Of a stretch of DNA of 64,000 nucleotides, positions 70-52,380 are shown one piece after another. A program made the position numbers and the translations under genes. Under the pieces are notes generated by a model. That model was not told the DNA's origin, did no database searches, and worked only from the letters and a program-made list of their open reading frames with translations. This DNA is from Raillietiella orientalis. Taxonomy: Eukaryota. The number at the start of each line of letters is the position of its first letter. The first letter of the stretch is position 1. The stretch lies in NCBI GenBank assembly GCA_036172245.1, contig JAYWIR010000034.1, forward strand, positions 2,232,001 through 2,296,000, in the 5' to 3' direction.

Positions 70-3000
70 TTATCACCCAGTCACCCCGGGACGTTTATTA
101 TAAAAAATAAACATACGTGTGTAGGGCAGTCGTCTCCGTATTGTCCGAAAATGCTCGGAACCTTCCGAGTAAGCGGCACGCGGGCCGGAGAGGTTCGCCT
201 CGGAAGCGGGAGGGGAGGGGGGCAAGGGCGCAAACGAAAATGAAAACAAAAACAAAAAAACACTATATACAAAAAATTGGGAGCGTAAGGGAAGGGATTA
301 CTGTCCTCTGGAGGGTCTCATCCCCATCCTTTCCAGAATGCTGGCAAGTTTCCTCAGATATGTCTCGGGCGGGGCCATCTCGGGCTGCCGTTCTCATGAA
401 GCGCAGGGTGAAGCAGATGACGCTCCTAGCGCGCTGTCCTCTTCTCGCGTAGCTCCAGGTCTTCACAATCCCTCGTAGGCAGCAAAGAGCTGCTGGGATC
501 CGGCAGGCGAAAGGGCATCGGGCACGAACAGGTAATTCATCAAGTCCCTAGCATTGTTCGTCAGTGCACCAAGGGGTGTTGCATAACGCAACCACAGGAG
601 CCGGAGGGCAACACAGTCTACAAGCAGGTGCGCGAGGGATTTCCGTTCCCCGTACCTGCAGCGGTTGGGATCCACAGTCCCCCAAGTCCAGTGAGACCAG
701 CGGGCGTTGCACGGGAGACCCCAGTGCAACCGCAGAAGTGCCGACTCCTGCCACTTTAGGGGGAGGACTCGGTTGTTCTTCAGCGCTTATGGCCACTCGA
801 GGTCATTCTGTAAAATTCCCAGCAGCTCACCCTAGCTCAATTGGTCACTTGACGTCGAAGCGTCCATGAGCTAGCCCGTGGTACAACCACCTAATTCCTT
901 CGTCCGAAGACCTATTTCGCAACTCTCTCGTTTGGCAGACTGGTTACTGCCCAATTGCTTCCTGAGGGACAACAGTGCCACGGTTAGGGAGGTTCTTTGC
1001 GCTCATGCGCACGTGGTTGGCTGCATGATGATGTCCTGCAGCGAGCGGTTGCTGTAGAAGGAATGCAGTAGTCGCTGCCGCATCTCCAGGCTCGCTTCTT
1101 TGTTCTTGACTCATGTGAGAACGGTTTGCTGCAACCAGGCACTACCGCTCGCGGTCCGGCAGGGAAGCTACTTCGGGTGTCTTCCTATCGCTTCGAGCGT
1201 ATCTCCACGGAGAGGCGGGATGCCAAACTACCTCTGCGACTGCCTCTCTACGTGAAAGCCCGTCGCGCTCGAAGAAGCGTCGCAGAGCAGGTTCGGGAGC
1301 AACGGAGTCAGCTCCCGTCACCCGAGAGGAGGAGGCTGACTCCAGCGCCTGAGGTTCCCTGAGGACATCAAGCAGCGGGTGCGGGAACAATTCGACAATC
1401 TCGCACCTGGAATAGTTATCCTGGAAACGACCGGAAGCCCAGTGAAGAAAGATCATCACCCGGTTTTTCGTTTTTCCACCTGACAGAGAGGGTCGAAGGA
1501 TCCATGCTAGGGGCAGGGACCACCAGTTTCGCAAGGGACACGTCGAAGAGTCTTCCCCGTCGAAGCAGTCCTTTAGTCGTGACCGTAGCGTGGCAGCGTC
1601 GACCGGCTCGCTTGTGCTCCGGCCGTCTTGGAGTTTGGCCACTCCAGCAATGCTACGGAAGAACCTCCGACCTTGTCGATTAAATGCTGCCGTCGCTTTC
1701 TCTGGGGGAAGGCAGCGTTGCAGCAGGCGGTCTGGGTCTCTTCCTCGGAGTACTGCAGCGGATCTTCCAAGGGGATGCTATGCGGACTCATCAGCTCCTC
1801 AAAAGGGCGAAACGGATTGCACTGGGAGTAGAGGGATGCATGGACAATGACGATCGACTGTGGGCCACATCGAGCGATGCGGCCCACAGTTTGCATCCTA
1901 AGGCAATCGGTAATCGCAATACCCGGTGCACAGCTGACGTCAGCCGTGCTTTTCCAGCGGAGTCATGACAAAGGACAGTCTCTTCCTTGCACGTTCTTCA
2001 CGAGATCGATGCCCGTGGACCCATGGAAGCGGATTGAACAGGAGCTGAGGGAAGCTGGTCAGCCATTCCTCTCATCCCCTAAAGAGCAAAAGCAAATTCC
2101 AATTCTTTTCAAGGAGAAGAGTATTTTTTTTCTTCCTGCCCTTGGAGGGCAAGAGACGTGGCTCAAAAGACAAAACTCCTGCGCCCGCTCTGCCCTGAAT
2201 CATTTTCCGTGAGGTTTCACTTCCGGTTCCCTAAAACAAAACTGAATATTTGATGACTCCAGCTTCGCAGCTTCCTGTCAGCTAACGGTTCGTGCTAGAT
2301 GCACGGTTACAGCATTTTTCATGAGATCTGCTTTCGATGGAACGCGCTCCGCATTTCAGCATCTGGACCTAGAGTCCTTCTTACTCGGGCTGCATTACGA
2401 TGCGAACCTCAGCGCTAACGCGAGGTTCCAGACAGTTTCCGATGCTGTGGAGATGCGGCAAGTCGAGCAGGTTGCCACTTGGCCGAGTACGAGGGAGATG
2501 CAGGATGCCCGCGAGACCGTGTCCCCTTGTCGGTGAGGGGGCGAATTAACTTAATTAAATCATTTCCCATTTTATAGTGAGGTTTACAGCCCTCGTTGGG
2601 CTCCCGACCACGTGATGCAGGCCGTAATGCTCGGGAGTTCATCTTTTACGAGCCACTCTATCCGCAGGCACCGGGAGAGGCCCTTTCGCCGCAAAGCCGG
2701 AGGGGCAGCTCGCACTAGAGGGGAGCGCAGGAGGGGGTCTGCTCCGATGTTTTCGCATGTCGGAGGCTCGAGATCAGTTCCTCTGTGCTCGGAGCGCACC
2801 CCAGGCAACGCGCCTCCCCCACCAGGGGTTCCAGTCGTCCTCTCGAAAGAAAGTGCGGCCATCGGAACGTTCTCCGCGGATGCCCTCCCTGGTGAGGGCC
2901 GCCACCGGCAATGGAAGGGTCGCTCCTTCTCCGCTTCGCTGCCGATCCGGAAGTGCTGATTCGCGGTCGCATCAGCAAGTCCAGTGACCTCTGGCGCGAG

Positions 3001-3200
3001 ACCCCAGCTTCGGAATCCGGACCGCGTCCATCCCCAGAGTCATGTGATCGGAGGGCTCCTCGGAACGCTCGGCCCTCAAAATGAGAACGTGTCTGGCGGT
3101 CGCGTGGAAAAGCGCTCGACAGCGAAGACCCCACCACTTGGGGGCAGGCGTCCCGGTGGTTTCGTAAACGGGATCCAATGATTTCGGGACGAAGGACAGG
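70..3200 (-). mobile_element. Decayed L1/Tx1-like LINE (family A): EN remnant, RT, C-terminal zinc finger, 3' UTR and terminal motif
   Basis: Minus-strand motif remnants in canonical order: VWNLALAL (~2410-2440), NPFRPFEEL (RPISL-like, ~1800), AAFPQRK (Q.GF..GR-like), LKDCFD (motif A, ~1560), then HWGLP...RCRYGERKSLAHLLVDCVALRLLW (zf-RVT, ORF 463..729), a T-rich UTR and the terminal motif at 70-99. The 5' boundary is approximate. Confidence 0.7.
263..796 (-). pseudogene. Frameshifted C-terminal zinc-binding (zf-RVT-like) region of LINE ORF2
   Basis: ORFs 463..729 and 263..466 align by eye with ORF 50912..51412 (WQESALLLLHWGLPCNVRWSHW...CGERKSLPHLLVDCVALRLLW) and with 38970-39450. Confidence 0.8.
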
Positions 3201-3363
3201 TAAATAGATGAAACCAAAAAGAAAATTCACAGGGGTCTCTTCAGCGATAGAATTTGTAGAAGGAATAGTAGATCTATCGAAAAGATTCGGGATTGACACA
3301 AAGGAACGCATGGGGAGAATCTCCTTCTCACACACAGGCATTGCGCCTACTACTCGACCTAAG

Positions 3364-5850
3364 GGGCGACTTGGTCACATTGGGATGTCCATTAAATAAG
3401 CATATATACAAGGAATAGCTTATGTACTGAATACATTGAACGTCGAGACGCAGGTCGGCATAAGAGAACGGGCAAAGCAGAAATTGCAAAAGAAAAACAA
3501 AAAAACAGGCAAATAAATAAATAAATTATAAAGATTGACGGAAGTGGGACAGGAGAGGGCTGAATCACGTCTGTTCGTCCCGCCGTTTTCTCCGCCTGCC
3601 TGCGATGCAGGAGGCCTTCTCTCAGCTCCTGGAGGAGGCGAGGTCATCATGCTGGCGTCCTCGTCACGGAGAGAGAGCTCCAATCGTCTCGCTGCTGCTG
3701 CCTCGCCAGGTGAGGAGGGCGCTCCCGGTGGAGAAAGGTGGCCGCCTCTACTCGCCGCCACCGGCCTTGCAAAAACTGGCAGCCCCACGGCAGATTGGAC
3801 CACGCGTCGCTGGCTCGGGTGCGCAGGGAGTCGGCCCAGCAGGAGTCGGCGCTGATCACATGTGCGTCACGCACATCGTCGCTGTTGGCCAAGGGCTCAC
3901 CTACCAGCGGCACCTCCTCTTGTCGGGCCGAGGGCTTTCTCGCGAGTCGAAACCCGCTGCCCTACACATACGGCACCGGGAGTCTGCGCAACCGAGCCGA
4001 GCCTTCCTGCTCGATTTCCGGCTCCAGGGTATTCAGAGACCTGTGGCCTTCTCGTGAGTTCGAATGTGTAGGCTTGTGCCAGGCCGTGCGCTGACCGGCG
4101 GGTTCAGTAAGTTGCCTGGGATAGACGGCAGCGTCATACTGGTGAACCTCATTCCCAGCTTTACTTCCGCATCTGCGATCTTGTAATCTCCAGCGCGGCG
4201 AGGCGTGGCATTCCCTGATCAAAAATCCACAGGGACCGGAAGGGGAGACGCCGCGCGCTGGATGACACAGGAGGTGGAGCCAATCCTGCACTTCAGAGGG
4301 ATGCAAGACAGCGCATTCAGATTTTCGGATGTGTCCCTGACTCTCGGCTCGATGTCCTCCAGGTCAGGAGCGGCAAAATGAGGTGTCCTATGGTTGCCTC
4401 TGACAACAAATACTGCCTCTATGTGAACCGGTTCCACAGGCTGAAGGGGATAACATCTGGATATTTCTTCAGAGCATCGACTCTAAAGAAGAAATGGTGG
4501 CGGATGTGGACGGGGAAATTTTCGGAAATGACGTCGTAATCTCGCAAGGAGAGAACGAAAGAATGCACAGGACATAGAGATGGTGAGGATGGCAAAAAGG
4601 GACCAGACCCTCTACTATGCGTGCTCCCTGAGTTTACTCAGTGGACTGAGCAGGTTCGCGCACGTTTCTGAAATTTCCTGCTCTTTCAGATCTCCATCGT
4701 GCTTGGGGCACCAGGATTCCAGTGACCGGAGGCGTTCGCTTCAGTTGGCTCTAGGCCTTTTGAAAGCGAAAGGGAGAGTCCATGGTCACCAAGTATTTTT
4801 TCTTTCCTTTCTTTCTGGCCTCTCCTCGAACGCTGGCCAGAACGCCTTTAAATGGTCAGCATGCGTTCCTCATGATGCCCTGCATACGACGAGCCCACCT
4901 AGCAACGACAACTCCAAGCAATTTTATTGTTCCCTGGATCGAATCACCCATGTATCCCCCATGTCACCGCCTTCTCGACGCAACAGATAAGTCGTCGTGC
5001 CTTCTGGTCTGCTGTTGAGGGCGCGTCCCTCAAATGGTGTGTGGAATCCGCAGCAGCGTCCTTATCCCAATTCTGCCATCTGTGGCAAGATCGATCTTCC
5101 ATCTGCTGCCTGCCGACTGAACTCATCTGCATCAGAAATTCATTCGAAGCCACCCACGGTTCCATCCCAAGCAGCGAAACCACACGTCGAGGATGGATCC
5201 CAATTCCGAGGGAGGTGTGGTCAAAGCTTCTCGGATGGCTTCCAGCCACCTGAAGAGCACACAGCAGAAGGGTCTTCCCGTTTGGAGCGTTCGCATTTCC
5301 AGCAGAAAGAAGTTTCGGATGCTGCAAAGTAGCTGTGAACGCGTCGGCTGCTACTCTTTTTTCAAGAAGAACAGTCTGCACGAGGGAAAGGGCTCTGGTG
5401 CCCTGTAGCGGCAAGGAATTCAAGAGGTCAGGGAAAGCTGAGCGTTCCCGGTGACAGCCGTGAGGATGTCGTCCATCGTACTGGAAGAAGTCTAGGAGTG
5501 AACGTGGCAGCAGCCACCAGATCTGCTTCACAGAAGAGGTCGATTCCTACCGGTGCAGCGTGCAGGAATGCTCTTGCTAGAAAAGAACGGAAGAAAGTCA
5601 ACCCATCTCCTTCTCTGCCCTTGCACCGTAGGGCATCTGGGACTCTCATGTAGGTGTTCAAACCTGAAATAGCCGCAGGATCGGTGCTTTGAAAATCAAA
5701 GTGGAGCCTTCGGGAAGAAGCGAAAGGCGGCATGACAATCAGCGTCAACCTTCACAAGAAACGAGTGTCAACCGAGCCATCACGACCGATAACTATGGTA
5801 ACCGGAAATAAGGTGCTCTGCAAACCGAGATTTCAGGAGCCACCTCACTT
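3364..5850 (-). mobile_element. Decayed LINE ORF2 remnant (different subfamily) with 3' end
   Basis: SFDHTSL (endonuclease SDH-like) in ORF 4944..5531; zf-like LRRLPVP...RCRW.GE...H near 3860-3990; T-rich UTR at 3480-3530; degenerate terminal motif at 3364-3393. Confidence 0.5.
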
Positions 5851-18062: not shown

Positions 18063-18420
18063 CTCGAATGTGACATCCGTGGGTATCTGCTGGTTTTGCA
18101 GGCGGACCGTGACTTTCTGCAAGCCTGCAGTCTCTTACGAAGGTCACTTGGATTTTTTATCACTCCGAAAGAGGTAGGTGATGGTGGGAAAAAGTCTCTA
18201 GGTCCGGCTTCTACTGTCGGAACCCTGATCCTGGGCGTGTGGAAGTGGGGAACAATGAGGACCGAAGTCTCGCAAAGAGCAATGGTAAGCTCTTGCTGCA
18301 CCTTGGTCCAGCAGGGTCGTCAAACCGCTATAGCGTCCGGTGGGCCGGCAAAGAAGGGCCGGTTTCTTGACATCGGCCGAGGACTTGGCTCCTGCTGACT
18401 CGCGTGAATTCGAGGTTCGT

Positions 18421-18642
18421 TTATTACCCGGTTGCGCTGGGACGTTTATTAATAAAATGAAATCATCTGGGAACTGGGTTCCCAGGTAAGGGGAACAGAA
18501 GATGGGGAGGAGGGTTCCCGGCACGCAGGCCGGGCACACTGAGAGTTCGGAACGGGTGGGAGGGGACAATAAATAAATAAATAGGGTGGGAGGGCGGGTA
18601 CAGGGGTATGCAGTTTAGCCGTTCCTAATCTCAGAACCGGCG
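18421..18642 (-). mobile_element. 222-bp 5'-truncated LINE 3'-end insertion with 17-bp target-site duplication
   Basis: GTGAATTCGAGGTTCGT is present at 18404-18420 and 18643-18659. The insert carries the terminal motif (18421-18450) and is homologous to 32760-32843 and 46135-46160. Confidence 0.85.
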
Positions 18643-19049
18643 GTGAATTCGAGGTTCGTGGAACGCAGTCCCGGACCTCGAAGTACAAGTCTAGGAAAGG
18701 TGTCCGAGCCTTCCAGCGTCCGGATGAAACCTCCGGGTTCCCTGGACTCCCTGAAGGTTCTTTCGGCTGAGGATTTTTCTGTCGCTTGTTGGTGGTGCAT
18801 GTGATGCTCAGCTACCTCCGATCGAGGCTGGGCAATTCACCTGGTGGTCCCCCGCATCCACCCTTTCAGGGACAACTTGGCCGTTTCCTCCCATAAGGCT
18901 TGGAGCGGATCATGAAATCCACAACCGCACCAACTCCTTCCGATGGACAGATGCTAGATGCTGGTCCTGACCCTGACATCAATTCGCAAGTATCTCCGTC
19001 TTCGACGACTCGGATTCAGGGAAGGTGTGGAGCGTGCGCTGGTAAGAAA

Positions 19050-32479: not shown

Positions 32480-33064
32480 TTCCCACCCGGTCACGCAGGG
32501 GCGTTCATTTAGCGAAAAAAAAACCAGTTGGGAACGCGCAGTTCCCGCCAGGAGGCAAAAGGAGTTCAGGGAAAGGGTCCACCGACGCTCAGGTCGAGAT
32601 ATCTGAAAGTCCGGAGCGGGAGGAAGGGGAATGGAGGCAACAAAAAAAAAAAAATTAGGAGTTAAGGAAGGGATGAGGCAAGGGTCTTTGGTGTCGCTCC
32701 GTATGCACCGGAATCAACACACAAAAACAGGGAAAGTTGCAGAGCGAAAGGGAGTAGGGAACGAGAGAAAAACAAAATGAATACAGGGTGCTTGGGGATA
32801 AGGTCGCCGGTATCGGCCATTCCTTCACTTCAGAACCGGCGCTGGATGTCAGCGATCTTAACCTTTACCCCTCCTTCGAGATGAGGCCACCTTGCAGCCT
32901 CCTTCATGTAGGCAGCAGCAGCCTTCGCTGCGTGGCCGTCTCGAGCACGTGGCAGGAGCCGTGACGATGGCACGGATGCAACCGTTGATTGCCATCATCA
33001 CGCCAGTCGAAAGTCTGGCACGAAGCAGCTGCCGCAGATCGCGGGCGGTATCCTCCTGGTACAA
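32480..33064 (-). mobile_element. LINE family B 3' tail (ORF2 end, UTR, terminal motif) joined to module copy B
   Basis: GGAGGATACC...GACTTTCG and GCCGGTTCTGAAGTGAAGGAATGG match 45912-46162; terminal motif AATGAACGCCCCTGCGTGACCGGGTGGGAA at 32480-32509. Confidence 0.7.
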
Positions 33065-33998
33065 GAACGCTGTTTTCTTTTCTTTCTTTTTTTTTTTTTT
33101 CTTCGGGTTTTCTTTTTTTTGGTTTGCTAAGTGCGCCTCAAGAGCTGGTCGCATGCCTCGCGGCGCACGTGGCTCTTTAAACACTGTTTTGTTTCCACGC
33201 CACTACGCCTGCGGCAGCCCGCAGGGGGACGTGTAAATTCTTCAGGATAAGGGGCACCCCGGAATGGGGGTCCGCCCTATGAATCCAGGAAGGGCTCGGA
33301 GTCCGTTCCTCACATGCTTGTGGAGGGATTCCCCCCCGGACGGGGTGGATCGCACCTCCCACCCTGGTTGTCTCCGAAGGGGAACCCCGAAGGGAATCTC
33401 CTTCCTCATTCTCTCCGGAGGGGCACCCCCTGGGAGGGGGGTGGTCCTCTCCATTTCATCTTCTCCGAAGGGAACCCGGAAAGGATCCGCTAAGTAGGAA
33501 TTTCTTCTCCGGAGGGAACCCGCAAGGGAACCGCTCCTGTTCACTCTGAAGAAAACCTCGAAGGGACGCTTCCGAAACTCAGAAGGGGCGCTTGCAGCTT
33601 CCCAGAGGGAATCGCTCTCGCTTGCTTCCTTGCACTCCGTAAAGAGGCGACGACTCGGAGGGTCTCTCCCCGCAACAGGAGGGTCCGCTCCTCTGAACAA
33701 CTGGAGAGGTGCCCGTGAGGGCTCCTGCTCCATGTTGAAACCGGAGGGGTCCGCTCTCCGTTGTACGATCGGAGGGGGAACTCCCCACTCCTTGATTCCT
33801 GGAAGGACCCGAAGGTCGACTCCCATTGTTCTGGCCTTCATGGGGGGCCTCCGAATTAATCCACCACCGGTGCCACGCCAGCGCCATCTTGCAGGAGAAA
33901 CTCGGAACCCAACGATGCAGTGGAGTCAGTTTCTGCCGAAGTATTCGAACCCGAGACGCATAAGGCCATGCGCGGAAGCCTTAACCTCCGAAGCGGGC
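33065..33998 (-). mobile_element. tRNA-headed structured module, copy B
   Basis: The reverse complement aligns end to end with copy A; B-box at ~33941-33951. Confidence 0.85.
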
Positions 33999-33999
33999 G

Positions 34000-34400
34000 C
34001 TGTACAAGAGCGCTGAAGGCAGCCTTTGCCACAGTTTGTGGAGGGCCTCTCAGTCCAAAGGCAGGTGCAGCGGGATCGATCTCTGCCGACCTGCCGCAGT
34101 TCGAGGATGCAGCTACCCTAGAGACGAGATGGAGGCACTCAATGCACTGGAATCCCCAGCGCAGAATGAGACACAGATGTTGGGAGGGCGGGGGGGATCA
34201 CGAATTCCTCAGGGACAATACCCAAAGCTCGCTTCACCGAAGGAGTCCCGTCGCCAGAGTACGCGGAGTGGCAGCATCCACTAATTCGCGCGTCTTCCAG
34301 CCGCCAAGGAGTTTTGCGTTTCCTGCGATGGTGCAGGAAAACTCGCACCTCGCCGGTAGGCTCTTGTCGTTTCTTGCCCTGAGGGCGGGCAGCACTGCGG
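34000..34400 (-). pseudogene. Possible second DIRS-like RT fragment
   Basis: PAFGLRG peptide and matching DNA shared with 16250-16270. Confidence 0.3.
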
Positions 34401-34402
34401 CA

Positions 34403-34432
34403 TTACCACCCGGGTACGCCGGGGCGTTTATT
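34403..34432 (-). other. 30-nt LINE 3' terminal stem-loop motif (copy closest to consensus)
   Basis: AATAAACGC-CCCGG-CGTAC-CCGGG-TGGTAA. Confidence 0.75.
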
Positions 34433-36649
34433 AAAAATTCTCAATAACGGCGAGGGGTGTGGCATCAGCCAGGGTCGACCAGTTGACCACTTTGCCGTGT
34501 TCTGCATCATCACTTCCAGAGGTAGGGTGAAAAGTCGTGCAGGGGCAAAGTTTTTCCGGACGCATCTTCTGGAATGCAGTCCAGACTCAACAGCCTCCTG
34601 CCTCCAGGCATTGGAGTTTATTGGGCGGTAGAAGATCCATCGATAGGATTCCATTAGGCAGAGAGTTGTCTCAGGGAGAAGCCAAATCCACGCATCCTGT
34701 ACTGGGTGCTGAGCAGCAACGAGAGCAGTCCTTCGCCGCCTGCGTTTGCTCCGAAGGATGACGCGTGCAGGTGCCCAAAACGGGAAAGTCCACAGCTTAG
34801 CGAGAGTGTCAGCATTTGGAATTGCACCTCTTCGAGAGTATCAATTAGGAGAGAAAAAAAACTTACTTACTCATCAATGAAGAAGGTTCCAACCTGAAAT
34901 GCAGAAACTCATGGAACAAGGAGATGCATCATCTTACCACTGGGCAAATCAAAAAAGGCAATCGCTGAAAGCAAGCTGTCTGAGAAGCAGATTGTAATGA
35001 TGGTTATCGAGGCAACAGCAACTCCTACTGCAAGAATGGACAGACGGCGACCTAAGCAACAGCAGAGCAACACTACATAATTGGCTGCTCCATCCGTGTA
35101 CAGCATTCCAAGTACGTGTCGCTCCTAAGAATTACTTGCATTTCGTAGATGTGTTGCTTCCTGGATTAGGGACCCACGCGTACCTGGTCGCAATATGGGG
35201 TCCACGGAACGTCATTCTTCCTTGATTATCTGTCTTATCCACGCTAAAAGCACATACGTGCTAACTTGGCCACATATGTGGATCACAGACTTTTATGAGA
35301 AATAAGGGCCCGGCGTAAAGCGGCCGCTTTCTATAACTGCGTGTTTATTTGTTTTAACAGTTTGTTCGGAATGCAATGCATAACCGTCTCTCGGAGGCAG
35401 AATTCCTTGGGGGCTGCTCCTATTTACTGAAATTTTCATTTTTGTCGCTAAAGTTACAGACTGCCCTTGATCATCTGCAACTGAATAAGGTGAAACAGTG
35501 GAAGGCGTCAAAAGATCCGTTTGCAAAGTGCCGCCATAGATGGAAGCGATGGGAGGAGTGAGCGATTCCAAAAGAAGCGACCCCTCCGTGTCGACGCTTT
35601 CTGAATGTTTGACACGCCTCACTCTGCCGTGTATGTTCACATGGAAAATGATGTGAACATACACGTGAAAATCCTGTCTAAGCAAAGCTCCCGCAGAGCA
35701 ACATCGATACTTCCGAGTCCAGCTCCAGATGCCCACGTGAAACAGGTGCCGAAGAGTGCCCAGCTTCTGTTTTTCTTCTCTTGTAGAAAACTCCATAATT
35801 TACCCTGTGAAAATGTTGTTTATCATACATGCGCCATATATTAATACATTCTTTCTTTATGTATCGATGCACGCTATATTAAATAATGTTCTCAAGGCAT
35901 GAGCATTCTATACGTTTTTGTGATCTATGCGTGCATCTTCCATGAAATATGCTGAGAAGTTGTCATAAGCTGGAAAGAGTTGGTTGTCGTAGGGGAAAAT
36001 TTCACACTTAGCAGAAAAGCCCTAGGAATGCTCGCTTGGATGCTGAATTCTCCATGACAGCGAAAAGATAACATAAAATTGTAGTTGAGAGGGAATTTTC
36101 CTAGGAAATGTTCGACGCTTTATAGAGCAGCAGCCCATCTTCCTTTCACATGGAAGTTGTGCTTTCTATTTGAGAGGCAATGCAGACTACAAAGAAGCAC
36201 CATCTTCCCCTACATAATGAGTGCTTGCCGTCATCCAACAACCAGAGATGCACTACAGATCTTCAAACAGCACCCAAAACGCGCACTCCTGATTTCTTTG
36301 TTGCTGTCTGCTGGTGTGTTTGGACCAATCCATTTCCAATCTAAAGGTTTTTGGAGTTCAACTGGAGGAATAATAGTTCGAAAACAAATAATGCAAACGT
36401 AATAAGATCGAATGCGGAAGATTCGTCTGTCTGAAGCAATGAAATCCGTTTGAAGGAAGAAATGCATCCTTCAAGAAGAATTCGTCACAGAGAAAGCCAT
36501 TAAAGCCAATGGCTTTCAAATGTGGCAGCACTTTCTGCTCCTCAAGATTACTTTCAAAACAGTTAGTATACAACGAAAATAACGCAATACATCTTCCTGT
36601 CCCCCCAGTGAAAAGAAGAAAGCTCCATTCTGCAAGGCGGTAAGATCAG

Positions 36650-38690
36650 AAGTCGTCTCGCAGATTCCTATGAATCAAAGTGAATTCCTGTTTTTGAACC
36701 TCCGCACTCCTGCCAAAGTACCCTTTCAAGACCGAAGCGCAAGAAGAGAGCAGGCTAGAGGGAGCTCATCTGGGCGCGACATGGATGATAGTTTTCGCTC
36801 ATCCTGGTGCCACAACCCTTTGCCTCGAGGAAGAGAAAGTAATCTAGAGTTCCAGGGTCTCTTTTCCAAAGTCCCAGTACATGACCACACAGAAACCAAC
36901 GCGTCTTCGGAGCATTTCAGTTGCATGGGAAGCACCTCGCGATTGAGACTCGTCGCTTGGAGCCACCCCAAGGTCTCGATTGGACGCTTCTGCCTCAGGC
37001 ATCCGCTGCACCTGCCTCTTGCTGGCCTCCGAGCGGGCGTCGAGAGCAGCGGCGCCTTTGAGTCGGCACCCGCAGAAGCCGGGGAGTCGACTGCCATTCC
37101 GACTCCGACCAATCGAAAGCGAACGAGCCAGGGTAGGGCTCCAGGGCCCACCAAAGCCTAAACGATGCAGGCGCTGCTCGCAAGAAGCCAGCCAGTGAGG
37201 TCCGTCCGCCTCCAGGGGAAAGGGAAAAGGAAACAAATGCGAGGATCAGGGTCGCGAGAGGTCACTGGAGCTTCGCACGCGCACCCTGCATCCCCTGAAG
37301 GACAGTGGCAGATTCCTCCTTCAATCTGACTCTTGTCCTCCTCAAGAAAGAGACGGCGTACCTGCTGGAGTGGGTGTTCTGCCTCGACGACGCTTCGTGC
37401 CGCGGAGGAGGAGGAAGAGCGCATCAACAGCCGCGGGGCAGGCGGCGTTACAACGCGCACGAAGGGGCTCGTCGACACGTTCCTGGGGATCAGAAGGGTC
37501 GCCAGAAGACTCTCTCATCCGCAACGGAAGGCAACACCAACATGCGCGCAAAGGATTCCACTCTCCCTCATCTCGCATAGTTCGACGTCACGCGCTTCCT
37601 CTGATGCAGCAGTGCCGGCGCACTGTTCCCTTGCTGTTCCCTTGGTGAACTCGGAAGCCAAGCTCCTGCTCTCGGAACCATGGACCAGGCTCCTGGGGCA
37701 GGTTGAGAACTGCGTCATCAGTGCGGAACGGTGTTACGCTGTTTGCCGGTAAGGGCGCGGAGGACGCCTCGTTCTTTGCGCAAACGTGGCTCCGACCGCA
37801 GGGGAGGGTCGCGCCGCAGGGGCACGGAAGCCCGGAAAGGGGTGAGGCCGATAGAGCGGAAAGCGAGGGAGATGTTTGCAGTCCTGGCAGTCTCAGTCGA
37901 TCTCCGAAAGGCGCTCTGCTGTGTAAACCAAGAGCTGCATCTGTTTCCTATGTAAACCATCAGCTCCTCCTGCTTCTGTTTCCAGGCCGTGTCGGCTTGC
38001 TTAAACCACTTCCTCCTCCTCCTGCGATTCGGGTCACTTGGGCTTTCCGTGGACCACCACCTACGCTCTTTTCAACGCGATGCTCTCACGAAAACTTTCA
38101 GCGGTCAACACGCGACTTTTCACCTGGCCACGACGGGGTGCTCACTGTAAAGATGTGTACGTATCTACAATAAAACAACGAATATACGAAACCATTCGTC
38201 CGTAGAGAAAGTACAATCCCACCTCTTCGGCAGGCCAAGGAGGAATTTGTTGCTCGCCAGCAGTTTGCAGGAAGAGGTCCACCCAAAAGAAAGGGAAATA
38301 AACAAAAAATCAATGTGTCAAAGGAAAAAAAAAAGTTCCAAAAATGCTTCGGAGGCAAGGGAAGGAATCACAGTAGCCTTTTTGTTGTCCTCTGCATCCT
38401 CTGCAGGATGATGGCAAGTTCGTCTTTCGGACGTGGTGAATCTCGCTGCCATCCTCAGCAGGGGGAAGACGATGAAAACGGCATCCCTGCTTCCTATTGC
38501 CTCTGCCGCCGTGGTTTCTTGTCGCTACGACTCCATGCGGGCAGCACAACGCGGCGATCGCTTCCGCGGGAGATACTGCGCCACGGGCACTGAAGCGTCT
38601 CAGCAGGCTTTCGAGGTCGTCACGGATGAGTCCGGGGACGGAGGAAAATATTCCTAAATTTTACAGGTGTAAGGCGTGCCAGTCAGGAGG
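36650..38690 (+). mobile_element. Decayed LINE 5' half (knuckle, EN, start of RT), ending at the next LINE
   Basis: RCRRC (~37165), SSFNL...SRGAGGV...NMRA endonuclease-like, ENGIPASYC (PG.DGIP..FY-like, ~38475). Confidence 0.35.
38117..38370 (-). mobile_element. Short 5'-truncated LINE 3' UTR insertion
   Basis: T-rich UTR on the minus strand plus degenerate terminal motif AGTGAGCACCCCGTCGTGGCCAGGTGAAAA at 38117-38146. Confidence 0.45.
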
Positions 38691-38720
38691 GAGGTTTGTC
38701 ATTCGGATTTTCCGGGGCAT

Positions 38721-38780
38721 TTATTATAAAAAATCACTTATTATATAAAATATTTATTATATAAAATTTATTATATAAAA
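38721..38780. repeat. Four tandem TTATTATA(TA)AAA units
   Basis: Units start at 38721, 38738, 38754 and 38768. Confidence 0.9.
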
Positions 38781-39638
38781 TAACAGTCGTTTATATCAGA
38801 GATTCATGGCAGAACATTTGGTTATACCACGCGCGAAGGACTTGCCAAAAACCGGTACGCAGACCGGTGAGGTCCGTTCTATCGGCGAAGGGGGAGGGAA
38901 AACCACAAAAAAGAACAAAAAATAAAAGGCAGTGGGAGGGGGGTGTTTTGTGGGAGGGGAGGGCGGGGAAGGGATTACTGCTCTCCTGGAGACGTCTTCT
39001 GCATCCTGTCTAGGATGCTGACAAGTTCTGTGTTTCGATCTAAGTGGGAGCCATGGGGAGGCGATCTTCAAGAAGATTCTTGCCCAGTGGATGGCTCTCC
39101 TGCTATTTTGACCCCTTCTGGCGTTCTAGCTTGCTACGATTCCGCGCACACAACAGAGCACTGCCAAAGGCGCAGCGGGGGGCAAGGCGTCACGCATGAA
39201 GAGGCGCGGAAAATGTTCTTCGGATCGCCCCCCGGGATTTTGAGGATCAACGAGAGTCGATTCCAAAGGACACGGAGGGTGTCATAGTCTATTATGATAT
39301 GCGGGAAGGTTTCCCTTTCTCCTCACTTGGCAAAATGGGCATCCACGCTCTCAAATGCCCAATGGGAGAGGGATGCTCTGCATGGGATCCCCCCAGTGCG
39401 ACAACAGCAACGCCGTCTCTTGCCACTTCAAGGGAAGGGTGCAACTGTCCCAACACGCTGGGAGCCACTTTACCTCCTCCTGAGGTAGTGCAGGCAGCTC
39501 GCCCCAGCGTACATATCCTTTAGGAGGGATATTCGGGGTCGCAGTGTCCTCTAGCTGCCGATTTGTCCACGCGCTTAAAAGTTTTTTTTTGCTTTGGATA
39601 CGGCAGGATGCTTCCCATCTTGTCAGGAGGTCGCTGTC

Positions 39639-40265
39639 CTAAGGGTTTTTCAGGGAGGGCAGCATTAAGGCAAGGGGGTGTGGATGAGACCAACAGTAGT
39701 TTGCGGTCTGGGTTGCACACGATCTCCCGCAGGGACTGTCGAGCGAACCTCCCTTTTCGAAGGCAGGCAGGTGCATTCCTCCTCGCTCGAGCCATGGGTC
39801 TTTCCTCATGCGGAGACTGACTCCTGAAGCCAGGAAGTGCAGTTCGCGGGGAGATCCAGCGTTCTCCTGCACCAAGGCAACCATTCGACGCAACTGACGG
39901 TCATATTGCCTCAGGCTGGTATCGATGGCCACGAGGGTCGAGGTCAATCCTTCGCAGCCAGTCGCTCTTCTGGTGAGGAGCCGTGCAGACGCACACCAAG
40001 GCGTATTCCATAGCTGCGAGGGCACGAGGGCGAGTCTTCTGACCTGGAGCTGACGCTCCATCCTCTCCAACGTAAGGAAGCCCAGTCCACCATCCCTACG
40101 CGGAACATACAAGTCTTCTAAGCGAACTCGGGACCTCCCTGTGCCCCAAAGGGCTTTGTTCAGGAGGTCTTCGGTTCGTTTTTTGATGTTGGGTGGGAGG
40201 GGCAAGCAAAAACCAGGGGACGGGGGAGGTGGCCGCAAATAAGTTCCATACCGCGACCCGTTCCC
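39639..40265 (-). pseudogene. Best-preserved LINE ORF2 segment (post-RT GGLG region)
   Basis: About 200 open codons containing LLNKALWG...VRLEDLYVPRRDGGLGF; the annotated ATG lies in the inserted module head and is not a real start. Confidence 0.8.
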
Positions 40266-40635
40266 GCCTGCGTCGGAGGCCATGTGGTTACGGGATCTCC
40301 GCGCGTGGCACCACCAAGGGTCACGGGTTCAACTACGAAAGAAATCGATGCACTGCGTCGTGGGTTCTAGTTTCTCCTGCAAGATGACGCTGGTTGGCCT
40401 ACATTCATTCGGGTGCGTCACTGTTAGGGTTCAAACAGGATGCCCCTGATGAAGGCCGGAATAATCGGAGTCGAACTTTGGGTCCTTCCACGAATCAAGG
40501 AGTGGGGAGTTCCCCTTCCAGTTGTACAAGGGAACCCCCGAATGTGGGGATCCTCCCCAGGTCGCGCTTACGGAGTAGATGTGTAGCCACCTCTCCAGAG
40601 AGCTCACAGCTGGAGGGGAGTCTCGAAGGAAAACG
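40266..40635 (+). mobile_element. tRNA-headed module copy D (3'-truncated)
   Basis: GCCTGCGTCGGAGGCCATGTGGTTA...GCGCGTGGCACC...GGGTTCAA; homologous to 27378-27710. Confidence 0.8.
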
Positions 40636-40871
40636 GACTCCTTGATTTAGTTCCTGGAAGGATTCTGATACCGGTCACTCATCAGGGGACATCCAGTTGT
40701 AACCCCCACCGGTGCTGCACCCGAATAGAGGCCAACCAGCGTCATCTTGCAGGAGGAACTTGAACCTGCGACGCACCCCCATCTCTCGGCGTCGATTCTT
40801 TCCGAGTATTCGAACCCGCGATGCCTGGTGCCACGCGCAGAGACTGCAACCATGTGGCCTCCGACGCAGGA
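40636..40871 (-). mobile_element. tRNA-headed module copy E (3'-truncated, inverted against D)
   Basis: Reverse complement reads CCTGCGTCGGAGGCCACATGGTT...GGGTTCGAATAC...GGTTCAAGTTCC...CAAGGAG. Confidence 0.8.
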
Positions 40872-41514
40872 TAGCGAAGGACTTCATCCGGTCTCGGCTG
40901 AAATGTGGCCATCCCCTAGCGACCGACCACGCGCCTCAGGATGTCACACTCACGAAGACGCCAACTCCGTAGCCCGTTTTCGTCAATGGAAGGCATCTCA
41001 GCGTTGGGCTACCAGGCCTCGAATGTCCTTGCAGGGTAACCGGGTCTTCGAGGCGAACTCTCGGCTTCAGGGCACCTTGAGGTGCTTTTCGCAAGAGAAC
41101 TTCTGGCATGAGCCCCGCTCTCAAGGTGAGGTCGGGACGAATGGAAGGGTCCCAAGGAAAGTTCGCTCCCGCAAGGAAAGCTTCCCATCTCGGAACGGAG
41201 TCAGTCCCGTTGCTGCCTTCTGTAGGCAGCCGGACCAGATTTTGGGGCTCGCAGGAGTCTCTTGAGGGCACGCCAAGGTATTTCTCCGAGTTGACTCTGG
41301 GAATAAACGAGCGGATTCTTCCCGGCAGCCCTCCTCACGCTGCACCCACGGGCACGACTTGGCCGTCTTCCCGCCCATGCCCGCTCCCAGGTTGATCACC
41401 TTGAAGAACTGGCTCTGCAGCGACTCCATGGGGTGGAGATGGCGGCAGGGGAAGGAGGTGACTTCGCATAAGCCGACGTGGCTGGTCGCGCAGGGTCACG
41501 AGGGCGTCCGGTTC

Positions 41515-41595
41515 TACAGAGTTTCCCTGTGTGCTTCTGGCACTCGGTTTGTCTTTATATTTAAAAATGGGCGCCCCGGCGCTACCGGGTGGTAG
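41515..41595 (+). mobile_element. ~80-bp LINE 3'-end stub antiparallel inside the family A LINE
   Basis: T-rich stretch followed by AATGGGCGC-CCCGG-CGCTA-CCGGG-TGGTAG at 41566-41595. Confidence 0.6.
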
Positions 41596-44119: not shown

Positions 44120-45100
44120 AAGACCTTCACGACTGACGTCGCACCAAAAAGAATAAGATTCGTCGTCGCCCGGGGAGACCAGCTACGCGCAAGAAAATTG
44201 ATGGTCTGACATTGGCACCTTCCACGTTCAGCTGTTCAAGGGAAAACACGCGTGGTCCATCTTGAAGACATGGGGAAAGGGAACAAACAAGAGGGAAACA
44301 AGATAAAATAAACAAGTGCATGTTAAAAAGGGTTTTTGGTGAGGCTTCGGAGAAGGGTCGCGCTGTGTCCCGAGACTCCCTGCTCACCCTCTGCAGGATG
44401 CTTGAAAGTTGCGTCCGAATGCTGCCCCTGTTGGGACCATCTCGTGAAGAGCTCCACCCGGTGGATGACCCCCCCTGCCTGTGCCAGCCTCTTCTTGCGG
44501 CGTTCCAGGACGGCGCCATCCCGCGAAGACAGCAATCAGCAGCTGCCAGGGATACGCGGCTGGTGGCAGTGCAGAACGCACAAAGATGCGTTTGGTCACG
44601 TCCCTGGGACTGGTCTACGGGATACACAGGGCCGATGAACGTTCCCAAAGAGGTCAGAGGGCAACGTTGTCTGCAAGCAGGTGATGGAGAACGAATTAGG
44701 CATGGTCAGCTGCTGTACAGATTAGTCAGCAACAGCTTGCACTAATACCGGTCTTCCCCATCCGGGCAGTTTGGGTGCCACTTCTGCTATCCTTGGACTT
44801 GACTGCAACTGTTCAAGCAAGGTGGTTTGGTGTTGGTGTCTACCGAGAAGGGTTCTGCCACAGAAACGGCAGTGTTTGCATGCTTGGGCATCACGGACTG
44901 GAGTGACAGCTCAAGCCATCAATATAATTTTTTGCACCCAATTTGAAATTGACAAAAAAAAAAACGCACTGAGACCACAGCCACATGTTAGCGTTGGCGG
45001 CTGCAATGAGAAATGGGGAGGTGCATCATGAGTTTCAAGTTTCACCCACTGGATGACGCTGGCTGGCCTGAAGGCTTCGGGTGCAGAACTGGTGCAATCG
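44120..45100 (-). mobile_element. Older family A-like LINE 3' part
   Basis: LHHLLADNVAL*PLW (~44645-44690) matches HLLVDCVALRLLW; T-rich UTR at 44280-44315. Confidence 0.55.
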
Positions 45101-45149
45101 GATGCTCTCACTGACTGGCCTCCAGCCTCCTTCCAGGTACTAAGGAGTC

Positions 45150-45715
45150 AGTTCCCTTCGGAACCTCCTCCGGCTGTAAAAATGTTTCCGTACCATGGAC
45201 ATGGACGATGTCCCCTTCTGGGAGCACAGGAGAGTTCCAGAGGCATGTTGCTCCCTTCGAGGAGCGACCCCTCTGAAAAATTGGGAAGCTTTCCAGTTTG
45301 GGATTCTCTTCAGAGGAGAATCTTCAAAGGGGGAGAGAAGGAGGGGTTCCCTTGCGGGTTCCCTTCAGAGAAGAAAATAAGGAGCGGTGCCCTCTGGGGG
45401 GTCCCTCCGGCTAGAACAAGGAAGCGGTTCCCTTCTGAGATGCCTCCCAAGAGTAATAGGGGCCGACACCTTCCTCCGAAGCCCTTCCTAGATTCGCAGA
45501 GTGGTTCCTTCGGGGTTGTCCCCATAACTTCAAGAGTCCCACGCACCCTTTGGTGGCGTGGACTCTTCAAGTTAGATCCCTGAGGAGGCGGACGGCCCTC
45601 TTTAAGGACCAAAAAGGAGGGAAAATCTGGAAGGAAAGCAGTGAAAACAGAAGAATCCCAAAGGATCCCCTTGTTTAGTAGATGTCGGAAATCCCAAAGG
45701 ATTTCCTTCATCCGT
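45150..45715 (+). mobile_element. Module copy F (headless, diverged)
   Basis: GGTTCCCTTGCGGGTTCCCTTCAGAGAAGAA, GCCCTTCCTAGATTC and ACAGAAGAATCCCAAAGGAT match 27893-28372. Confidence 0.7.
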
Positions 45716-46333: not shown

Positions 46334-47780
46334 TTCCCATCCCCGATGACCGAGCCATTTATTGGGAATGAATAAACTGAACTGCGCGATCGCAGACAGA
46401 AGGGCCAACGTACACCTTCACCCATCCATCCGCGTGCTCCCAAAGGTACAGCTGCCCTCGCAGATGACACAACTGGAGGAGAGTGGAGTTGAGGCAAAGG
46501 AAACAAATGAATAAATAAATAGGGAATGGGATGGACCGATCTCACGGTATTCCACTTGATTCCCGGGGGCCTGCGTCCGACGGAGAAGGGACCGAAGGGG
46601 TTCTTTTGGTTGCATTGGGTAATTATGCGCACAAGAAGGTCCCCTTGTTCCTTCCTTCCCGGATTGATCCGTTTCACCCCCCTTCTTCGCATGCTGGAGG
46701 CGATGACGACTATCGACAGTTGTCGCTAGCTCGTGCGTGGCAAAGCTGTTGTCAGCTCTGAGGCGGCCGGCAGGTCTAAAGATGTCCCTCTCTCACCAAA
46801 GAGGTCTTCTGGGACAGCAAGGTGGAACCGGGGTGCCTCAGCAACGCACTCTCACCCTTCCACACATCCATACCACCGTCCCGAAATGGGGGTGTTCCTT
46901 AGGCAGTCTCTTCACTCTCCCCGCTAAGGCATGGTAGCCTTCCTTGTTTCGGAGAAGAACCCAGTGGATCAGAAAGATGGGTGGTTGGCTGGTACTTGGG
47001 AAGGAGTGGAAGGCGTCGACCAGGAAGCACGGGATCTCGAAGTTCTTTCGGGAGATCTCCAAAGCTCCCACAGGTACGTGAGCTAGAACTCCTGGAGTGT
47101 TCTCGTTTGCCAGGCGAGAGGTCTTCCACTGGACAATGGGTTCGGTTGACTCCGGAGATACATCACATCACCTCCCACACTGCAGGAGCATCCTATTCCT
47201 CCTGATACTAACGGCGTAGCAATCGACGCATGATGCCCTGAATGGCCTCACGCCGAGATCCGGAGGGTAGGCCCGATATCCCTGCAAGAGGGATTTCCGC
47301 AGACGACTGATGGCGCCATGGTTCCGGAGGGTTATATTTCCCACTCGCGTCCACGCTCCTATCGATTCCCTCCACCAAGCTTTCCTGTTCAGTTGGCAGC
47401 AGGGTGTCCACTCGGGTTCCTCTATCAGCAATGCAATCGGGTGACCCAGACTTCTTTCTGTCCAGCGGTCGAGCGAGCGGATGGAACGCAGTGCTCTTAC
47501 TCATTCTTTGAGCGAACACTCCAGAGGAGGCACCAGTAAGTGTTCCACAGTCTTGCCGCAAGGGTCAGCCGCCCAAGAGGTGCTTCCATCAGCACCCGTT
47601 CGGCGGGGAATAGGTTCAGATCCTACTCTTGAAAAGGGTGAGCCAAGTCTTTCAGTCGTATACAGCGGAGCCGCACAGAGCTCTCCTCATCATGCTGGCA
47701 ACTTCACGGAGCAGCAGTCCCCGGCGGGAACGCGTAAGAAGACCGTCGTCCTTCGGTGCTAACAGGGTTCTTTAACAAAG
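46334..47780 (-). mobile_element. Decayed LINE 3' half
   Basis: P...GG.GL.DL-like ~47260-47300; WMCG...CPRRPLW zf ~46800-46875; degenerate 30-nt terminal motif at 46334-46363. Confidence 0.6.
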
Positions 47781-50329: not shown

Positions 50330-50625
50330 TATCATTTACAGCCATTAAGTATCTTTTAAGTATCTCGCGGGTTGTTTCGTGATTTGGTTCAATAACGTTG
50401 TTGTGTACAGTTTCGTTTCTTATCACTTTAAGTGTTGGTACGCGGACAGAATACAGTCTTGTGATTAACTCATTACAATTAAAAAAGTGTTTGTTTACAT
50501 CCATATTCTTCAAAATTTTTTGCACAAAATATGTGGATTAAAAAAAAACTATATTGTATTAAAATTAGTAGAATTAATATGTATTAATATATTATTTTTT
50601 TGCATCATTGCATTATAACGTACTG
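50330..50625. other. Sharp AT-rich island containing a short open frame (50316..50525, minus)
   Basis: Composition is visibly far more AT-rich than the flanks; origin unknown. Confidence 0.6.
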
Positions 50626-50691
50626 TGTACAGCCCGCTTGATGATGCAAGGATTAAGCTGGTTGGTCTGCAGGCTTCAAGTGTGGCACTGG

Positions 50692-52380
50692 TTGACACTT
50701 GGTCACACCGGGGCGTTTACTTATAAAACTAACATACATGTCTGTGGCAGGACGTTTGATCCTGTCACTTTACTTATAGCTACGAGAGGGAACCTGCCGG
50801 GATCTGGCACGCAGGCCAGCGGGGGTCGCCTCAGGGGAAGGGGAGACAAACAAAAAGAAAAACATAAAACAAAAAACATAAAGTCAAAAAAATGGGGGGT
50901 TCGGGAAGGGATTACTGTATCCTGCTGGGCGTCCTCTGCATCCTTGTAAGGATGCCAGCAAGTTTCTGTTTCAAGACTCCCAGATGGGGCCATCTTGACG
51001 TGATCTTCATGAAGAGAACAGCGTCCCTGTCGTTCTGGCCTCCTTTGGCGTTGCTCCATGCAGCCACGGTCCCGTTGCATGGGCGGCAGAGCGTTGCCAG
51101 GGATGTGGCCAGCCTGAGGGCGTCGCGCAGGAAGAAGCCCTTCAAAACGTCTCTGGTGTTGCCACCGGGGATTCCCAGGGTCGCGGCAAAGAGTTCCCAG
51201 AGGAGCCGGAGGGCAACACAGTCCACTAGGAGGTGCGGGAGAGATTTCCGCTCACCGCATCTTGCACTGTTTGGATCCTCCCCCCTCTCCCCTCCACCCC
51301 GGGTCCAGTGAGACCAGCGGACGTTGCACGGGAGACCCCAGTGCAACAGCAGAAGTGCCGACTCCTGCCACTTTAGGAGGAGGTCCTGGCTGTTCTTCAG
51401 TGCTGGGGACATTCAAACGCTACGACCCCAGCTGCCCCAGTGAAGGGACTATTTCGCTGAGTTGAGCTACTGAGAATCACATAGGAAGTTCCCGAGTGTT
51501 GCCCAGCGCTGATGAACAACCCAACCCACGCCCTGAAGTGGCAGGAGTCGACACTTCTGCTTTGCACTGGGGTCTCTTGTGCAACACCCACCAGCATCAT
51601 TGGACAATCATTGGACGGACAATCCCAGGGATGTGATGAAGGGCCTTTTCGTGCCCGATGTCCTTTCGCCTGCCGTATCCATAGAAGCTTTTTTGCTGCG
51701 TAAGTGGAATTGTGGCAGTCTGGAGCTACGCGAGGGAGGATGGTGCGATAAAGGCGCCATCTGCTTCGCCCTGAGCTTCATTAGGACGGCAGCTAGATGG
51801 CCCCACCCGAGACATATCTGAGGAAACTTGACAGCATTCTGGGAAGGATGCAGAGGAAACCCTCCAGCGGATAGTGATCCCTCCCCTAACCCTCCCAAAT
51901 TTTTGTATATAGTATTTTTTTATTTTCATTTTCATTTTTATTTCCCTCTCCCCTTCCGCTGCCGAGGCAACCGTCGCCAGCCAGTGTACAGTTTACTCGG
52001 AAGATTCCGTGCATTTTCGGACGATGTAGGGTCGATGACCCTATACATATATGTTTATTTTTTATAATGAACATCACGGAGTTACTGGATGATAATCCCT
52101 ATAACTTGAAGAGTTAACACGCTCCCTCGGGTAGCTTGGGCAGCGCCAGGGCGCTTCGTGATCCGCGCATGCCTTCAACAGCTACAAGAGCTGCCAGAGG
52201 TGTCCCCATCCGCACACGTAAAGACGCAGTACGGATTTTATCCGCATCGTAAAAGTAGCGTTCGGAAGATGGAGAATCGTCTATCGGAGACAACAAGTAC
52301 CAGCTTTGGAGTCGCAATTGTTCTCGGATCTGATACCAAGAAGAGATCGGGCCGTAATTCCAAAAGGGGGCATCCGCTCA
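50692..52380 (-). mobile_element. Family A LINE 3' part, split by a nested copy
   Basis: ORF 50912..51412 contains the zf-RVT; terminal motif at 50692-50721; 52100-52380 resembles 39500-39770 (the upstream continuation). Confidence 0.75.
51455..52095 (+). mobile_element. 5'-truncated family A LINE 3' end nested antiparallel, zinc-finger core deleted
   Basis: Closely matches the reverse complement of 70-840; terminal motif at 52066-52095. Confidence 0.85.

What the first reader, a model, noticed from the sequence alone, without database searches (positions are those of the whole stretch)
70..52095. Fixed 30-nt 3' terminal motif (polyA signal plus 5-bp stem, 5-nt loop) shared by different LINE subfamilies, with no poly-A tail
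Seen: consensus AATAAA-CG-Y-CCCGG-N5-CCGGG-TG-RTAA aligns without gaps at 70-99, 3364-3393, 18421-18450, 32480-32509, 34403-34432, 38117-38146, 38696-38725, 46334-46363 and 50692-50721 (all minus), and at 41566-41595 and 52066-52095 (plus). Several copies are degenerate, and the loop is the most variable part. The upstream UTRs and zinc fingers belong to at least two or three distinct subfamilies. Established: stringent LINEs such as eel UnaL2 need a 3' stem-loop for RT recognition, whereas mammalian L1 relies on poly-A. Inference: a conserved cis RT-recognition or priming signal in L1/Tx1-like elements that could mobilise any RNA ending in it.
Basis: partly seen in the sequence, partly recalled or inferred. 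Interest (0 to 1): 0.7.

Follow-up and report, generated by a model that had tools for sequence, protein, structure and literature searches.

The report
Tail-less LINE ends with hairpin tag
Many diverged families of L1-like jumping genes in this genome stop at exactly the same base after a shared AATAAA-plus-hairpin motif and carry no poly(A) tail, which is most likely the RNA tag their own copying enzyme recognises, a known strategy seen here in an unusually strict form.

Summary
Confirmed with corrections. Ten of the 11 listed copies are real; 3364-3393 is not distinguishable from chance by the motif alone. Three exact patterns find 938 copies in the genome. The motif is the exact 3' end of an L1-group LINE radiation whose ORF2 proteins are 52-68% identical. 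Target-site duplications of 9-17 bp start at the next base, and the terminal A-run is 0-7 nt. It follows ORF2 in 38 of 45 protein-anchored loci. Corrections: it is 30 or 31 nt, because the loop is 5 or 6 nt; the terminal stem is invariant rather than covarying; and the conserved unit extends upstream, with a covarying CTGCGN hairpin and an AU helix that may pair with AATAAA. A sister lineage (27% identity) ends in a different AATAAA-plus-hairpin. Families have their own target sites, one read on both sides of the nick. Best reading: stringent 3' recognition with a fixed, A-independent start of reverse transcription (inferred, no RNA data). No non-LINE passenger was found. Precedents exist in monocot L1 and L2 LINEs. 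The scan noted this motif before on other pieces of this genome.

The parts
70..99 (-). 3' terminal motif of a decayed LINE; ORF2 C-terminal remnants at 508-1654
   Evidence: 35.2 bits; tblastn; about 73% identical to young 3' ends over 900 nt
3364..3393 (-). doubtful, very decayed 3' end
   Evidence: -5.8 bits; no significant upstream match; CTGCGT hairpin remnant at 3442-3459
18421..18450 (-). 3' terminal motif of a 222-nt 5'-truncated copy
   Evidence: 30.3 bits; 70-75% to the family of L006
18421..18642 (-). whole 5'-truncated copy, bounded by a perfect 17-bp TSD (18404-18420 and 18643-18659) that starts at the base after the terminal AA
18517..18534 (-). upstream CTGCGT-loop hairpin, 6 of 6 pairs intact
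32480..32509 (-). 3' terminal motif of a decayed LINE whose ORF2 remnant (32833-33073, 34002-34830) is split by two later insertions
   Evidence: 30.2 bits
34403..34447 (-). 45-nt stub (15 nt of T-rich UTR plus an exact motif at 34403-34432) inserted in the ORF2 of the element ending at 32480; at most a 4-5 bp duplication
   Evidence: host homology resumes on both sides; none of the other 39 listed matches spans the junction
38117..38146 (-). decayed 3' terminal motif
   Evidence: 18.7 bits; upstream 63-72% to other 3' ends
38696..38725 (-). 3' terminal motif of a LINE with ORF2 remnants at 39206-40250 and RT remnants at 41160-41567
   Evidence: 30.4 bits
38851..38868 (-). upstream CTGCGT-loop hairpin, 6 of 6 pairs intact
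41566..41595 (+). decayed 3' terminal motif of a short copy
   Evidence: 23.0 bits; family not assigned
46334..46363 (-). decayed 3' terminal motif; ORF2 remnants at 46910-47661
   Evidence: 16.1 bits
50692..50721 (-). 3' terminal motif; ORF2 C-terminus with zinc finger at 50921-51412; upstream hairpin at 50803-50820
   Evidence: 25.1 bits
52066..52095 (+). decayed 3' terminal motif of a copy related to the one at 70-99
   Evidence: 19.3 bits; 79% to 67-562 over 498 nt

Best explanation
The motif is the last helix of a structured 3' RNA tag of a stringent-type, L1-group LINE lineage. The tag spans about 130 nt: a covarying CTGCGN-loop hairpin, a variable hairpin, an AU helix that can include AAUAAA, and the terminal GC hairpin followed by 6 nt (UG-NN-AA). 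SHOWN: exact end, TSDs, no tail, conservation across families, upstream covariation, family-specific targets. INFERRED: ORF2p binds the tag; the endonuclease nicks a family-specific site; reverse transcription starts at a fixed base 6 nt beyond the terminal stem instead of inside a poly(A) tail, without A:T pairing to the primer. The invariant stem and flanks are probably read as sequence, and the family-specific loop may give family specificity as in L2 LINEs. Whether the RNA is polyadenylated, cut, or read through beyond that base is open.
For: TSDs begin at the base after the motif in 33 of 39 cases. A-run at most 7 nt in 143 copies. Motif found in 38 of 45 protein-anchored loci, 0 of 45 antisense controls. 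Core identity 0.93 between 14 multi-copy families, adjacent 30 nt 0.51, with ORF2 52-68% identical. The end stays 6 nt after the stem with 5- and 6-nt loops, so it tracks the hairpin, not AATAAA. Upstream hairpin: 6 of 6 pairs with double changes, 31 cells, 0 of 500 shuffles as high. Sister lineage D has its own AATAAA-hairpin-AAA end. The empty-site flank does not resemble the tail (9-36% match per position), and TSDs do not start with A-runs. Known analogy: stem and loop are needed for ZfL2 retrotransposition, and four L2 LINEs at 60% RT identity share one stem-loop (PMC4176376, passages).
Against: No binding, transcript or retrotransposition data. The terminal stem shows no family-level covariation and folds only modestly better than shuffles (z -0.3 to -1.4), so a hairpin is not proven for it. 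The upstream hairpin passed the 5-bp test in only 23 of 65 clusters; the 39 rows aligned were hand-picked partly by stem, and relatives share changes. No SINE partner sharing the tail was found, the usual mark of stringent LINEs.
Confidence: 0.62

Rival explanations
1. The motif is mainly a host 3'-end formation signal (AATAAA plus downstream element, or a stem-loop cut site as in histone mRNAs). It makes an RNA that ends exactly at the AA with no or a very short tail; the RT simply starts at the RNA end, with cis preference but little sequence recognition.
For: AATAAA lies 24-25 nt before the end, a usual signal-to-cleavage spacing (recalled). AATAAA is the one element kept verbatim in lineage D at 27% ORF2 identity. 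Invariance across all main families fits a slowly evolving host factor.
Against: The end tracks the stem, not AATAAA, when the loop length changes. AATAAA is predicted paired (0.58-0.69 against 0.28-0.36 with shuffled upstream), with G before an upstream T-run in 30 of 37 clusters having C at position 7 but 5 of 20 having T or A. Canonical polyadenylation would give tails; none is seen. Lineage D has a different hairpin in the same host.
Confidence: 0.2
2. Read-through priming: the RNA runs past the motif into the parent's own TSD, and these first bases pair with the nicked primer, as reported for R1Bm. The hairpin positions the RT and the family-specific TSD starts are inherited through the RNA.
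For: The first bases after the motif are family-specific: TC in 16 of 16 (TCG in 15) for one family, CA at +2/+3 in 18 of 19 for another, ATTTCAAT in 10 of 10 for a third. [quoted passage not shown]
Against: The TCGA family also has G at -4 of the empty site in 9 of 9 insertions, a base the RNA cannot supply, so the protein reads the target. Four of the six repeats starting at a positive offset were examined as mutated or chance TSDs; none was a clear 3' transduction. This model can coexist with the best explanation.
Confidence: 0.13
3. The motif acts as DNA (a palindrome-like site bound during second-strand synthesis or integration, or spread between families by recombination), not as an RNA tag.
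For: No covariation in the terminal stem. The families insert into each other constantly, which favours exchange of ends.
Against: Loops and position 7 are family-specific while the arms are shared; upstream helices covary with G-U pairs; lineage D keeps the architecture with another sequence.
Confidence: 0.05

Closest known systems
Stringent L1-clade LINEs of monocots (monocot 1a, LINE1-1_ZM with ZmSINE2/3) and Chlamydomonas L1-1_CR (PMC3472496, parts 1-2 of 3 of the text read)
   Same: L1-group ORF2; the last ~45 nt far more conserved between families than the rest; hairpin in the tail.
   Different: There the stem covaries, SINE partners share the tail, and L1-1_CR ends in poly(A). Here the terminal stem is invariant, there is no 3' repeat, no SINE partner was found, and the RT groups apart from plant L1.
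L2-clade stringent LINEs UnaL2, ZfL2-1, ZfL2-2 (PMC4176376, passages; PMC3747384, passages)
   Same: 3' stem-loop shared by families about 60% identical in RT; shared stem with variable loop.
   Different: Different clade; UnaL2 ends in TGTAA repeats, whereas these elements have no repeat and a fixed end with 9-17 bp TSDs; binding is shown there and only inferred here.
Tx1-clade target-specific LINEs (Tx1, Keno, Tx1-Mar; PMC4494074, abstract and passages)
   Same: APE-RT-zinc finger ORF2, zinc-knuckle ORF1, sequence-preferring insertion into other transposons, tandem copies at one site.
   Different: Tx1 is described from animals; these RTs form their own branch (which holds no verified Tx1 reference); the targets here are other LINEs; the passages read describe no shared terminal hairpin.
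Mammalian L1 (closest solved structure, human ORF2p, E 3e-45)
   Same: Domain order, AATAAA near the end, TSD length.
   Different: L1 primes in a poly(A) tail at T-rich nicks (PMC3649969, abstract start in the listing); here no tail and GC-containing targets.

Membership tests
L1 group non-LTR retrotransposon (L1/Tx1) | ORF2 with N-terminal APE, RT and C-terminal zinc finger | tested here: met
   PF03372, PF00078, weak PF13966; open frames of 1198-1227 aa; best PDB match human L1 ORF2p
L1 group non-LTR retrotransposon (L1/Tx1) | ORF1 upstream of ORF2, 5' truncation, TSDs | tested here: met
   ORF1 with zinc knuckles; full-length copies of 5.65-5.9 kb with 9-13 bp TSDs; truncated copies from 78 nt up
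L1 group non-LTR retrotransposon (L1/Tx1) | RT falls within the L1 group | tested here: met
   Quick ML tree, 51 rows: inside the branch with plant and vertebrate L1-like proteins (SH-aLRT 97), as its own clade with lineage D (98); careful search not finished
Tx1 clade (strict sense) | RT nested among Tx1 families | tested here: inconclusive
   No verified Tx1 reference was in the tree; the deep forks are unresolved
Tx1 clade (strict sense) | Target-sequence preference, often for other repeats | tested here: met
   Family-specific sites; lineage D at one ORF1 site in 9 of 15 ends
Relaxed (poly(A)-primed) L1 | 3' poly(A) tail and A-rich TSD start | tested here: not met
   A-run at most 7 nt in 143 copies; TSDs start TCGA, ACA, CNYC, ATTTC
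Stringent-type LINE | 3' end more conserved than the adjacent UTR across families | tested here: met
Stringent-type LINE | 3' stem-loop supported by covariation | tested here: inconclusive
   Upstream hairpin covaries; terminal stem is invariant
Stringent-type LINE | 3' tail required for retrotransposition and bound by ORF2p | not testable with these tools
   needs an assay
Stringent-type LINE | SINE partner sharing the 3' tail (common, not required) | tested here: inconclusive
   None among 15 short TSD-bounded copies; no A-box/B-box head within 500 nt upstream of 143 copies; the sample is small against at least 938 copies

The most novel reading that the evidence does not exclude
An L1-group lineage has replaced poly(A) priming altogether: its RT starts without any RNA-primer pairing at a base measured from a hairpin, and a portable tag of about 130 nt with a family-specific loop code pairs each RNA with its own ORF2p, while the endonucleases have diverged to different 6-10 bp sites in other LINEs. 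This would be a natural panel of tail-less, exact-junction, site-preferring insertion systems and a direct test of whether ancestral L1 was stringent.
Probability: 0.25. Interest if true: 0.7.

Novelty: new variant of a known kind. Interest (0 to 1): 0.42.

Why it matters
How L1-group elements pick their RNA, and whether strict 3' recognition is the ancestral state, is an open question posed in PMC3472496 and PMC3747384. This genome offers at least 14 multi-copy families, several with open ORF2 frames of about 1200 aa, that share one end, differ in loop and target, and have a sister lineage with a different hairpin: a ready set for swap experiments. Exact, tail-less 3' junctions are also of interest for RT-based gene insertion. 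The principle (a 3' stem-loop tag) is known, and L1 families without a 3' repeat are on record (9 of 233 plant and 5 of 15 green-algal families, Table 1 of PMC3472496), which caps the surprise.

Tried and rejected
RNA evidence: no RNA holder was listed for L038:4300-8200; this is no evidence either way, and no reads were laid. Motif in other organisms: 10 metagenome matches, none with an ORF1/ORF2 match and most looking like prokaryotic terminator context; no relative in viral contigs. One JGI protein (P0001, 61%) nests in the main lineage, but its DNA could not be read. Rfam: 0 matches in the window. Covariation of the terminal stem: tested at 2 of 5 pairs genome-wide and at all 5 in 26 copies; not found. 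3' transduction as the cause of shared downstream DNA: rejected, because TSDs and tandem copies show these are targets and the flanks are more diverged (about 70-80%) than the elements (about 90%). The 34403 copy as an internally deleted master: rejected. Terminal AA as target-derived: rejected. The flank table had an off-by-one error for 12 rows and was redone. The UTR alignment was uninformative and partly cut from view. Literature: seven searches found no description of this motif; Repbase and most subscription papers were not searchable, the R1Bm paper PMC1074724 was not held, and the supplements of PMC3472496 that show the monocot tail were not opened.
Full report
OBSERVATION. Eight match the consensus with at most 5 mismatches, against 0 in each of 50 block shuffles. 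A weight matrix trained on copies from elsewhere in the genome scores 10 of 11 at 16.1-39.7 bits, where shuffled DNA gives 0.4 hits at 16 or more per 264 kb; 3364-3393 scores -5.8 and stays doubtful. The 200 kb to the left hold only 2 copies at that score, so the window is a LINE island. In the 210-Mb genome three disjoint exact patterns give 220, 306 and 412 matches, with reversed controls at 0. The general form is AATAAA-N-G-Y-CCCGG-N5/6-CCGGG-TG-NN-AA, so 30 or 31 nt.

WHAT CARRIES IT. Young copies are two-ORF LINEs of 5.65-5.9 kb: ORF1 with zinc knuckles, ORF2 with APE, RT and a C-terminal zinc finger; the closest solved structure is human L1 ORF2p. The 135 copies clustered fell into 65 groups by their last 260 nt, 14 of them with more than one member; many singletons are short or old copies, so 65 is not a family count. 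ORF2 proteins of five families are 52-68% identical (two subfamilies of one family 84%). To avoid picking copies by the motif, I took 45 loci from two protein searches: 38 have the motif downstream of the zinc finger and 0 of 45 antisense controls do; the 7 misses are 4 places, all interrupted or truncated. In a quick ML tree of 51 RT domains these families form one branch inside the L1 group, apart from plant L1; no verified Tx1 reference was included and the careful search did not finish. The window's own copies are old remnants, about 63-75% identical to young ones.

IT IS THE EXACT END, WITHOUT A TAIL. Among 143 distinct copies with at most 2 mismatches, the A-run at the end is 2-5 nt in 139 and never above 7. 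A flanking repeat of 10 bp or more was found for 39 of 143 (most loci were too short to hold the 5' end); 33 start at offset 0 to -2, the negative ones through shared bases, while 33 of 544 control anchors show such a repeat at any of 13 offsets. TSDs are 9-17 bp. In the window, 18421-18642 has a perfect 17-bp TSD and 34403-34447 is a 45-nt stub inside another ORF2. The end lies 6 nt after the stem whether the loop has 5 or 6 nt. The empty-site flank does not resemble the tail, so the terminal AA belongs to the element.

CONSERVATION AND STRUCTURE. Between 14 multi-copy families the motif core is 0.93 identical, the loop 0.53 and the adjacent 30 nt 0.51 (shuffled 0.48); in 10 protein-anchored copies 0.83, 0.60 and 0.55. 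But the terminal stem does not covary: in 26 distinct protein-anchored copies no pair shows a double change, and genome-wide double changes at two pairs are 11 and 9 copies spread over different loop types, mostly transitions. It folds at -8 to -12 kcal/mol, z -0.3 to -1.4. Its arms are thus kept as sequence. The third refutation test is partly met: structure extends upstream. A hairpin with a CTGCGN loop lies mostly 70-130 nt before the motif; a stem of 5 bp or more around such a loop occurs in 23 of 65 groups, against 0 of 65 on the reverse strand and 1 of 63 and 0 of 62 in ORF2. In 39 of the 65 representatives, hand-picked as homologous (26 left out as truncated, interrupted or unplaced), all 6 pairs show double changes, 87% of cells pair, and 0 of 500 shuffles reach this; selection partly by stem and shared descent inflate it. 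A variable hairpin follows in most families (folds). AATAAA may be half of a helix, a poly(A) signal, or both.

A SISTER LINEAGE. A second LINE lineage (D; 26-29% ORF2 identity, sister branch at SH-aLRT 98) lacks the motif: one match in the 1.5 kb after 20 D ORF2 ends, belonging to another element. It ends instead in AATAAA, 4 nt, a bulged hairpin (CCCCA/TGGGG outer stem) and 3-4 A, in 15 distinct ends, with a 13-bp TSD on a 5656-nt copy. The architecture is kept while the sequence has turned over.

TARGETS. The bases after the motif are family-specific. In the TCGA family all 9 empty sites also have G at -4, six of them in unrelated DNA; the RNA cannot supply that base, so the protein reads the target. 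One family sits at ATTTCAAT in 10 of 10 loci, inside another family's ORF2 or in tandem; D sits antisense at one ORF1 site in 9 of 15 ends. Such insertion into other transposons is typical of Tx1 elements (PMC4494074).

MECHANISM. Most likely (0.62) ORF2p binds the structured tail and starts reverse transcription at a fixed base 6 nt past the terminal stem, on a primer that cannot pair with A residues. The sequence facts are shown; binding and priming are inferred from ZfL2 (PMC4176376, passages). Rivals: host end formation with an indifferent RT (0.2), read-through pairing as in R1Bm (0.13; PMC7265360, passage), a DNA-level role (0.05). The claim that any RNA ending in the motif would be mobilised has no support so far: all 15 TSD-bounded copies under 700 nt match LINE 3' ends, and the tRNA-headed repeat in this window ends in an A-rich tail.

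COMPARISON AND NOVELTY. It works like a stringent LINE; membership awaits an assay. A conserved 45-nt hairpin tail is known in monocot L1, and L1 families without a 3' repeat are listed (PMC3472496). New here are the absence of any repeat with a base-exact end, an invariant stem over a whole radiation, the multi-helix tag, and a sister lineage with an analogous end. Seven searches found no description of this motif, but Repbase was out of reach. The scan has noted the motif and the LINE-in-LINE targeting on other pieces of this genome; these notes are not independent evidence. Verdict: real, new variant of a known kind, interest 0.42.

Noticed in passing
window 33078-33986 (-) and 27378-28344 (+); fragments at 19205-19836, 40266-40533, 40679-40870, 45008-45435: A ~950-nt repeat with a tRNA-like head (B-box-like GGTTCGAAT), a 3' hairpin and an A-rich tail; the 33078-33986 copy sits in a LINE ORF2 with a duplication of about 14 bp. 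It looks like a long SINE that does not use the motif; its partner LINE is unknown. ARAGORN calls no tRNA.
   Followed up: partly
L038:5639-5675, L206, L111-L130: Lineage D, an abundant young LINE (108 scored matches at 85-100% identity), inserts antisense at one site in ORF1 of main-lineage LINEs and forms tandem arrays there.
   Followed up: partly
L041, L042, L049, L196-L205: One main-lineage family inserts at a single site between the endonuclease and RT regions of another family's ORF2, with 9-bp TSDs and head-to-tail copies.
   Followed up: partly
L031, L032, L036, L037, L210: The most common family often sits antisense at the ORF1-ORF2 junction of other LINEs.
   Followed up: partly
G000 contig ends, e.g. 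C1:2346, C1:12166045, C2:10020, C2:7446768, C5:6234809, C6:5991825: Many young copies lie near contig ends and on small contigs, which suggests LINE-in-LINE islands that break the assembly; not tested against a random expectation.
   Followed up: no
L081, L082, L100, L106, L109 (GCGTAC loop family): The two bases NN before the terminal AA vary within this family (AT, TA, GC, GT, AC, TC, GA in the list), unlike in most others; subfamilies or imprecise initiation.
   Followed up: no
P0001 (JGI, 2870-nt contig): A metagenome protein nests inside the main lineage, so the lineage exists outside this assembly; its 3' end was not readable.
   Followed up: partly
L212:4445: A lineage D end whose 5' hairpin arm differs from the usual one; decay or a subfamily.
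   Followed up: no
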